Assembly: GCF_006345805.1 (NCBI RefSeq)
Contig: NC_043003.1
Location: forward strand, 26,846,001 to 26,910,000
Reading direction: 5' to 3'
Length of the DNA: 64,000 bases
Origin: Octopus sinensis
Lineage: Eukaryota
Part shown: piece after piece, positions 61,130-62,379 of the stretch
Layout: each line of letters begins with the position of its first letter
How positions within the stretch are numbered: position 1 is the stretch's first letter
Position numbers and translations under genes: made by a program
The notes under the pieces: model-generated
Database searches by the model: none
Told to the model about the DNA's origin: nothing
What the model saw: the letters and a program-made list of their open reading frames with translations, nothing else

Positions 61130-61585
61130 ATTACTTCGTGTTATTGGCTAAGATCAAACGGTTTCAATACGATGAATTGCCACCTGTTGTAATGTATGAA
61201 AATTTAATAAACTATTCAGTATGAACACGAATATATGGGACAGAAATCCTTGATTGTAAAAACAGAAAAATGGGACTTTCATCTTTGTGGGGTAGAAAGA
61301 CATTTCATCAGCATAATGTTTCGCATATCATAATTCATTCGTAAATCATTCCTTTGTACCCCATGTTTGTGTTGTCTGTCATGTTTGTCCACCCTCTACT
61401 TTGAGCCCTTGGGGCTATAATAAAGAAAGATCAAAGAGTAGTATCTGTTCTCATCAGCTTAATATCTGATATGGTACTATCGATATTAAACTGATTTTTA
61501 AAACAAAGCGAAGAGTTAGGGGCTTGCTCCGCTTTTGCCACGGGATTGCCTGATATTGCAGTGCTTCCAGGATACACCCCATCTC
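61130..61585 (+). pseudogene. U2: U2 snRNA pseudogene interrupted by an insertion
   Basis: 5' part ATTACTTC..TTGGCTAAGATCAAA (61130-61158). The remainder from 61427 has GTGTAGTA changed to GAGTAGTA, a collapsed stem IIb and a broken stem IV. Confidence 0.93.
61159..61426 (+). mobile_element. 268-bp retroposon insertion in U2 with a 9-bp TSD
   Basis: AAGATCAAA is duplicated at 61150-58 and 61427-35. The 3' end TTGTCTGTCATGTTTGTCCACCCTCTACTTTGAGCCCTTGGGGCTATAATAAAGAA resembles the family A SINE tail. Confidence 0.85.
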
Positions 61586-62379
61586 TCACCCGGGAGATAC
61601 AAATTAATAATAAAGTCAGATATGTTGTTGCTGCTGGGGTTTTTTTTTTTATTACATCATCTCAGCGGCCTTTCCGGTTGTTGTGATTGTTAAAGACATT
61701 CCTCGCCGTCACGAAGTGATTTGTGATCCATCCCTCCTCAAACCCATCGACTTCCATTTGTGTCCTTACGGAGGTGATAGACCGTGACATTCAGTCCTCT
61801 TTGCTTTCTCATTTCAAATCCCATCATCGCTTTCGCACCTCTACCTGCCAGGTTCAGTGCCTTTAAAGGGGACCCTTTTTCTTGTAAGCAGTCGATTCAA
61901 GTCACCACTTTATGTATACTTTTCTCTCTCTCTCTCTCTCTCTCTCCTCACACCAGTCGCAGGCGCCAAGCAAAGTCACATGGAAACTGCATTTCCACTT
62001 CACTGCAAGATGTACAAGAAAGTATTATAACAGTAAAAAAATAATATGGGTGAAAAAAGAAGTGGCATTCCCTAACCAGTTATAATTATAGGCAAAGAAA
62101 AATTCAAAAAAACTTGATGAAACATTTGGATCAGAGATCGATCCTAGTGGACAGGAGGTGAGATTTGAAACCTTGCCTCCGGTATTAGACTGGGAAGACG
62201 TAGTAAAAATAATGACTAAAGACGTTAAAGTAATTACGAAAAACAAGATAACTGATTAAATTTAACTACCAAGTACGGGCGAGGCTCGAGTAGACATTAC
62301 ATCCTCATTATTACCCTTGCATTTATTTCATACGCTTTTTATTTTTTTTCTCCACTGTTCAAATTGTCTGTCCTCGTTT

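What the first reader, a model, noticed from the sequence alone, without database searches (positions are those of the whole stretch)
61130..61597. Retroelement inserted inside a U2 snRNA gene just before the branch-site recognition sequence
Seen: a 268-bp insert, TSD AAGATCAAA (about U2 nt 23-31), in sense orientation. Its 3' about 60 nt resembles the SINE A tail, but it has no SINE head or core. Known: U2-specific non-LTR elements exist (Keno, Tx1 clade; Utopia, RLE type) and, as I recall, insert a few nt further downstream. Inference: a 5'-truncated copy of the LINE that mobilises SINE A, possibly a U2-targeting family with a new site.
Basis: partly seen in the sequence, partly recalled or inferred. 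Interest (0 to 1): 0.75.

Follow-up and report, generated by a model that had tools for sequence, protein, structure and literature searches.

The report
Half-LINE aimed at snRNA promoters
A 268-base tail fragment of a retrotransposon that carries only the first of the usual two genes splits one decayed U2 RNA gene copy; it is a single event rather than a U2-specific family, and it likely landed there because its relatives aim at a fixed distance from U1/U2-type promoters.

Summary
The insert is the last 21 codons plus 3' UTR of a 1.5-1.8 kb element encoding only an ORF1 protein (two RRM folds predicted, CCHC). It is related to L1/Tx1-type LINEs that share SINE A's tail. No family is specific for U2 nt 23: the junction occurs once in the genome, and 0 of 29 and 0 of 14 relatives flank U2. 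Relatives are not random, though. Two sit at other U2 start sites, one at a U1 start, and 33 of 64 sampled tails abut hammerhead repeats that carry the U2 promoter core. The core-to-site distance is 53-58 nt (12 copies) or 60-67 nt (5 purine-tailed copies). Here it is 68 nt, only because net 12 nt of spacer are lost. Best reading (0.6): a promoter-guided insertion displaced into U2 by an older deletion. Rival (0.33): chance; 0 of 20 short copies sit at such promoters. Order of events is unresolved. This scan noted the promoter-targeting system before on other DNA.

The parts
61078..61099 (+). Decayed U2 promoter element (PSE-like; core ACCAGT starts at 61082), 68 nt before the first duplicated base
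   Evidence: Matrix from 10 distinct U2 upstream motifs scores 10.7, above the 99th percentile of window background, 7.8; aligned to paralogues; distance
61130..61158 (+). Damaged 5' piece of U2 (about nt 1-31); about 14 nt missing just upstream and 2 nt inside
61150..61158 (+). 5' copy of the 9-bp target-site duplication (U2 nt 23-31)
61159..61224 (+). Last 21 codons and stop of the ORF1 of an ORF1-only retroposon (A lineage)
   Evidence: Translation; best matches are ORF1 C-termini of ORF1-only copies, E 1e-9
61225..61426 (+). 3' UTR ending in a short hairpin (61404-61416, read by eye) and AATAAA (61419-61424); last ~58 nt shared with SINE A and autonomous LINE tails
61427..61435 (+). 3' copy of the target-site duplication
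61427..61587 (+). 3' piece of U2 (nt 23-194), about 9-10% substituted, 11-nt gap
61588..61603 (+). Downstream sequence shared with the intact U2 copy (3'-box-like; label recalled), showing that the target is a gene copy, not a retrocopy
55497..55690 (+). Intact U2 paralogue used as reference
   Evidence: Rfam 183.9 bits; identical copies elsewhere

Best explanation
The insert is a single 5'-truncated copy of an ORF1-only retroposon, likely copied in by enzymes borrowed from an L1/Tx1-type LINE and likely aimed by distance from the U2 promoter rather than by U2 sequence. Shown: the anatomy, the ORF1-only parent, autonomous relatives with homologous ORF1 and the same kind of tail, other insertions at U2 and U1 start sites and in hammerhead repeats bearing the U2 promoter core, and two distance classes (53-58 and 60-67 nt). 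Inferred: the partner's ORF2 protein recognised the tail hairpin and primed at a nick before U2 nt 23; the complex was placed relative to the promoter element, probably through bound promoter factors; a deletion between promoter and gene came first and brought nt 23 to 68 nt from the core, next to the 60-67 class used by purine-tailed copies like this one.
For: Parent and partner. Full-length ORF1-only copy between a U2 promoter and U2 +1 (L180). 5.4-kb autonomous-type copy at U2 +1 with a 17-nt duplication, 53 nt from the core (L184). LINE 3' end at U1 +1 (L256). Chance expectation for even one junction near a U2 start is 0.0004-0.08; two were found besides this one. Promoter core 50-70 nt upstream in 16 of 47 duplication-bounded junctions against 2 and 0 in control intervals. 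All 5 copies at 60-67 nt have purine-run tails; this site is at 68, duplication end at 77, within their 72-83. Precedent: TRE5-A ORF1 binds TFIIIB subunits in vitro, and its ORF2-deleted form TRE5-A.2 moves in trans (PMC3159450, passages).
Against: 0 of 20 duplication-bounded copies under 1 kb have the promoter core at 50-70 nt; all 17 that do are 1.4-1.8 kb, and this insert is short. The closest tail relative (L190) sits in DNA without the core, and its target begins like this one (AAGAT), which points to local sequence. The 16-17 positive junctions come from a few repeat families, so they are not independent, and some may have been multiplied as passengers of the repeat. 68 lies just outside 60-67, and with paralogue spacing the distance would be about 80. 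All four runs laid carry the insert and show no restored spacer, so the order is untested. The ruler was fitted after seeing the data. No protein-promoter contact was tested.
Confidence: 0.6

Rival explanations
1. Chance insertion into an already dead U2 copy: the lineage inserts loosely at purine-rich sites that can pair with its AAAGA end, and U2 nt 23-31 happened to fit.
For: 44 of 108 tails have unrelated flanks; 0 of 20 short duplication-bounded copies have the promoter core; L190 shares the AAGAT start without a promoter. U2 decay is 14 of 161 from the nearest paralogue (8.7%) against about 5.6% per lineage for the insert (33 of 293 pairwise), compatible with prior death.
Against: Expected number of sense junctions near any U2 start is at most 0.08, while the group has three at U2 and one at U1. 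The age intervals overlap, and part of the U2 decay is younger than the insert: organism D keeps 9 nt of the 11-nt gap.
Confidence: 0.33
2. A U2-specific family with its own site at nt 23, now nearly extinct.
For: Clean duplication inside U2 in sense orientation; Tx1-clade Keno shows that U2 specificity can evolve (PMC4494074, passages).
Against: One junction genome-wide in two exact patterns; 0 of 29 and 0 of 14 relatives beside U2; 48 of 48 scored U2 matches are uninterrupted (best-scoring only). Exact patterns miss decayed copies.
Confidence: 0.03
3. An RNA-level chimera (template switch between element RNA and U2 RNA) or an assembly artefact.
For: Such chimeras exist for non-LTR elements (template switch discussed in PMC4494074, passages).
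Against: Promoter and downstream flank are those of a U2 gene; the duplication lies inside U2; single contigs bridge both junctions in organisms B and C, the 5' junction in A and D.
Confidence: 0.02

Closest known systems
ORF1-present non-autonomous LINEs: HAL1 (L1), HeT-A (Jockey), Ag-Sponge (CR1) (PMC5786205, passages)
   Same: Encodes only ORF1, keeps a LINE-type 3' end, must borrow ORF2; forms head-to-tail arrays as HeT-A does (recalled).
   Different: Derived from an octopus L1/Tx1-type group with CCHC ORF1; many copies are site-preferring for hammerhead repeats and snRNA starts, which the passages read do not report for HAL1 or Ag-Sponge.
Keno (Tx1 clade) and Utopia (RLE type), U2-specific (PMC4640811, PMC4494074, passages)
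   Same: Sense insertion in the 5' part of U2; APE-type partner as in Keno.
   Different: Their 3' flank starts at U2 nt 39 and most Utopia families are U2-flanked (45 of 65); here the flank starts at nt 23, occurs once, and the element has no ORF2.
Tx1 families targeting other repeats, e.g. Tx1 in Tx1D, Tx1-Mar with SINEU (PMC4494074, passages)
   Same: Preference for another mobile repeat, tandem insertions, a non-autonomous partner, and U1-derived 5' heads (seen here in L185).
   Different: Targets here are hammerhead repeats and U1/U2 starts whose shared feature is an upstream promoter core, not the target sequence.
Dictyostelium TRE5-A.1/TRE5-A.2 (PMC3159450, passages)
   Same: Position-specific integration relative to a small-RNA promoter complex; an ORF1-keeping, ORF2-deleted derivative moves in trans.
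   Different: TRE5 integrates about 50 bp upstream of Pol III tRNA genes via TFIIIB; here sites lie at or just below the start of Pol II snRNA-type promoters, and no factor contact is shown.

Membership tests
Keno (U2-specific Tx1) | 3' flank begins at U2 nt 39 | tested here: not met
   Flank begins at nt 23; nt 39 from PMC4640811 passages
Keno (U2-specific Tx1) | Copies specifically flanked by U2 (Kojima's bar for specificity: over 20% of flanks) | tested here: not met
   0 of 29, 0 of 14; 2 of 108 tails, both found through U2 loci
Utopia (RLE type) | One ORF with RT and restriction-like endonuclease | tested here: not met
   Parent has ORF1 only; partners have APE, RT, zf-RVT
ORF1-present non-autonomous LINE (HAL1-like) | ORF1 present, ORF2 absent between the element's ends | tested here: met
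   26 of 26 bodies of 1448-1807 nt hit ORF1, 0 hit three ORF2 queries at E 1
ORF1-present non-autonomous LINE (HAL1-like) | ORF1 and 3' end related to an autonomous LINE | tested here: met
   ORF1 core 26-43% identical to autonomous ORF1s; shared hairpin-AATAAAG tail type
ORF1-present non-autonomous LINE (HAL1-like) | Marks of target-primed insertion (5' truncation, variable duplications) | tested here: met
   9 bp here; 12-26 bp in 47 junctions, minimum set at 12, some calls false
HAL1 proper (mammalian half-L1) | Descent from mammalian L1 ORF1 | tested here: not met
   Only sequence homologue at E 0.001 is an Octopus bimaculoides CCHC protein; fold matches are tandem-RRM proteins
L1 group (partner LINEs) | Two ORFs; ORF2 with APE endonuclease, RT and C-terminal zinc motif, closest to L1 ORF2p | tested here: met
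   human L1 ORF2p E 2e-68 against R2 2e-24
Tx1 clade (partner LINEs) | RT groups with Tx1 references in a tree | not testable with these tools
   No named Tx1 or Keno protein among the best 120 of 1403 hits; Tx1 is inferred from CCHC ORF1 and target preference
Type I hammerhead repeat (relatives' target) | Core, stems I-III and UH site in type I order | tested here: inconclusive
   Core, GAAA, stem III and UH in 11 of 11 picked flanks, stem I of 4-7 bp in 9 of 11; Rfam calls no hammerhead; cleavage untested

The most novel reading that the evidence does not exclude
An octopus L1/Tx1-type radiation, autonomous and ORF1-only, integrates by measuring from the snRNA proximal sequence element (tethered to SNAPc/TBP, perhaps through ORF1), with lineage-specific offsets, whatever gene lies downstream. 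This U2 copy is a natural ruler test: shortening the spacer moved the insertion from the start site into the gene body.
Probability: 0.35. Interest if true: 0.8.

Novelty: new variant of a known kind. Interest (0 to 1): 0.52.

Why it matters
The insertion itself is one dead copy in one of at least 48 U2 genes and has no likely effect. Its value is as a data point on targeting. Target choice in animal LINEs is credited mainly to endonuclease sequence specificity (PMC4494074). A group placed by distance from an snRNA-type promoter would be an animal counterpart of TRE5-A tethering. It would give ORF1-only elements a reason to keep ORF1, and offer a route by which Tx1 elements and SINEs gain U1/U2 heads. 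I found no paper on this in three searches aimed at it (listings only).

Tried and rejected
U2-specific site: searches gave no second junction; the second hit (L252) is not U2. Nicks at about U2 +2 to +11 are covered by neither nor, and all 12 own-genome searches are spent. One search's third hit (L179) is a native promoter; two of three hits (L254, L255) are SINE tails before a 12-nt coincidence. Eight of 30 loci are an unrelated repeat matching the pattern and were dropped. Rfam found no small RNA in 20 loci with unexplained flanks and no hammerhead family; ARAGORN printed no tRNA in 108 downstream flanks. Pfam gave only sub-threshold CCHC for ORF1-only proteins. The protein atlas gave no answer. 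The profile search gave 1460 unnamed hits and no classification. The ORF1 tree (26 rows, midpoint root) separates ORF1-only from autonomous ORF1s (100/99) but names no direct parent. No autonomous 3' UTR matches the insert beyond 12-20 nt by blastn, so its exact mobiliser is unidentified. No empty allele in four runs. No RNA holder listed. A general TATA-box rule (17 of 47) mostly overlaps the same repeats and does not fit this site. No supplements were read; junction figures of PMC4640811 and PMC4494074 may bear on exact sites.

Full report
Observation. The insert spans 61159-61426 (268 bp) between two copies of AAGATCAAA. Rfam finds two U2 matches in the window: an intact gene at 55497-55690 and the 3' piece of the split copy. 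The split copy shares upstream and downstream flanks with U2 genes, so it is a gene paralogue. Its 3' piece has 16 substitutions in 161 bases against the window's intact copy and 14 against the nearest of the paralogues compared (one row cut by a locus end was ignored). Its first 22 nt are more damaged, and about 14 nt are missing just before +1. The insert's tail matches a window SINE tail at 45 of 58 columns. Contigs from four runs of organisms A-D hold the insert and none skips it; organism D differs at 27 of about 611 bases, so the insertion is older than that split.

Is there a U2-specific family? No. A DNA search gave 40 matches (40 of 82 candidates scored); of the 30 loci returned only this one has U2 within 1.5 kb. 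The tail pattern has 15 matches genome-wide and again only this one is beside U2. The nt-23 junction pattern occurs once, and a wider pattern for nicks at about nt 12-40 gives this site and one non-U2 hit. Keno and Utopia flanks start at nt 39 (PMC4640811, passages), 16-17 nt further on.

What the insert is. Relatives extend 5' of the insert into an ORF with a CCHC knuckle. The insert's first 63 bases translate to that ORF's last 21 residues. Long copies are 1448-1807 nt; 26 of 26 hit ORF1 and none hits ORF2. Intact younger copies have open frames of about 440-460 residues from the first methionine. A model of one (mean pLDDT 73.8, pTM 0.43) matches tandem-RRM proteins (E about 1e-5 to 1e-4, low TM-scores). 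The only sequence homologue at E 0.001 is an Octopus bimaculoides CCHC protein, which points to an octopus genome. The protein search saw 12,139 first-look candidates, a rough figure that includes autonomous elements.

The partner. A zf-RVT search found two-ORF elements with ORF2 of about 1130 residues (APE, RT, zf-RVT), closest in PDB to human L1 ORF2p. Their ORF1 cores are 26-43% identical to the ORF1-only protein. One family ends in the same terminal motif as SINE A. Across 95 distinct tails, 76 have a stem of 4 bp or more just before the AATAAA-like signal, against 47.6 +/- 4.7 in shuffles, with different paired sequences in different lineages. This supports recognition of a shared tail structure (inferred). 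The exact mobiliser of this insert is not identified, and Tx1 membership is inferred, not tested.

Where relatives land. Of 108 tails from all loci then held (a sample biased by my queries; automatic labels with a few errors each way) 29 were labelled hammerhead, 30 tandem, 3 SINE start, 2 U2 and 44 other. In a second set of 64 tails (22 of 30 loci, plus 40 regions that I chose from 70 further listed places, leaving out the unrelated repeat and several near-identical young copies) 33 abut a hammerhead repeat; none of the 44 newly fetched tails abuts U2. Empty copies of the main repeat are common, and filled ones are opened at one position. Three insertions sit at snRNA starts: a full-length ORF1-only copy between a U2 promoter and +1 (L180), a 5.4-kb autonomous-type copy at U2 +1 with a 17-nt duplication (L184) and a LINE 3' end at U1 +1 (L256). 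Chance would give 0.0004-0.08 junctions near U2 starts over the range of copy numbers tried.

The ruler. The idea that the repeats carry an snRNA-type promoter came from earlier notes of this scan; I tested it here. An ATCAGT core lies 57-61 nt before +1 in 26 of 30 U2 loci. A like hexamer lies 50-70 nt before the duplication in 16 of 47 non-tandem junctions, against 2 and 0 in control intervals. With a slightly wider hexamer, 17 of 47 fall in two groups: 12 at 53-58 nt (10 with AT-starting tail ends) and 5 at 60-67 nt (all with purine-run tail ends). L184 is at 53. The window's site, purine-tailed, is at 68; with the spacing of its closest paralogues (57-59 to +1) it would be about 80. So an older deletion would explain why a start-site-aimed element lies at nt 23.

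Against the ruler. All 17 are long copies; 0 of 20 copies under 1 kb show the core, though one 375-nt copy without a clear duplication has it 65 nt from its 5' end (L279). The positives come from few repeat families and may include passengers. The nearest tail relative (L190) has no core and a target that starts with the same AAGAT. Divergence does not order the events: 8.7% for U2 against about 5.6% per lineage for the insert, with overlapping intervals. Organism D's contig is no longer than the window across the spacer, so it shares the deletion, and it keeps 9 nt of the internal U2 gap, so some decay is younger than the insert.

Comparison and novelty. ORF1-keeping non-autonomous LINEs are known (PMC5786205, passages), as are Tx1 families aimed at other repeats or U2 (PMC4494074, passages), hammerhead repeats in animal genomes (PMC7229834, passages; bioRxiv 10.64898/2026.07.22.740005, first fifth read) and promoter-tethered TRE5-A (PMC3159450, passages). 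Searches for octopus Tx1 targeting and for snRNA-promoter-directed LINE integration listed nothing on this (listings only; the library lacks Repbase and most subscription papers). The system was noted before in this scan on other DNA; the two distance classes and their fit to this split U2 are from my calls.

Verdict. A real, single, old insertion of an ORF1-only L1/Tx1-type element in a decayed U2 gene. Not a U2 nt-23 family. More likely promoter-guided (0.6) than chance (0.33). New variant of a known kind; interest 0.52.

Noticed in passing
L184 291-5690 (G000:C3, about 19.726-19.731 Mb): Full-length autonomous-type LINE at U2 +1 inside a U2 cluster, with a 17-nt duplication of about U2 -6 to +11; the promoter now faces the element.
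   Followed up: partly
L180 (G000:C7, about 27.339-27.340 Mb, minus strand): Full-length ORF1-only copy between a U2 promoter and an almost intact U2 sequence, 0.43 Mb from the window.
   Followed up: partly
L185 about 4555-9860 (G000:C6502): LINE copy whose 5' end is preceded by the first 20 nt of U1, away from a U1 gene: a U1-headed copy like the crocodilian Tx1-Mar heads.
   Followed up: no
L256 5512-7822 (G000:C15): 5'-truncated LINE ending at U1 +1; 92% identical to copies that sit in a hammerhead repeat (L259, L274), so one family uses both targets.
   Followed up: partly
L127, L130, L139, L140, L146, L260 3' flanks: At least five kinds of hammerhead-bearing repeat with palindromic stem III; the best-studied kind is about 380 bp, ends in (AT)n and often has an inverted partial copy, as Penelope-type elements do; Rfam does not call them.
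   Followed up: partly
L257, L260, L262, L263, L265, L092, L144 5' flanks: Several insertions without the U2 promoter core lie about 25-32 nt below a TATA-like box, suggesting start-site preference beyond snRNA-type promoters (read by eye).
   Followed up: partly
L103, L125 3' flanks: ORF1-only copies of another tail type sit at the 5' end of SINE A; L125 has a 17-nt duplication.
   Followed up: no
L143 7860-9254 and L136 7816-9159 (minus strand): ORF1-only copies whose front halves translate with many Lys-to-Arg/Gly and Thr-to-Ala changes, the pattern of clustered A-to-G change.
   Followed up: no
L187 819-976 (about 3.2 kb beyond the split copy, outside the window): A third, more decayed U2 copy (74% identity), so the region is a small array of U2 paralogues.
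   Followed up: partly
L192, L193, L195, L197, L209-L212: A young, near-identical non-coding repeat of several hundred bases beside (AT)n tracts, unrelated to the family, caught by the tail pattern.
   Followed up: no
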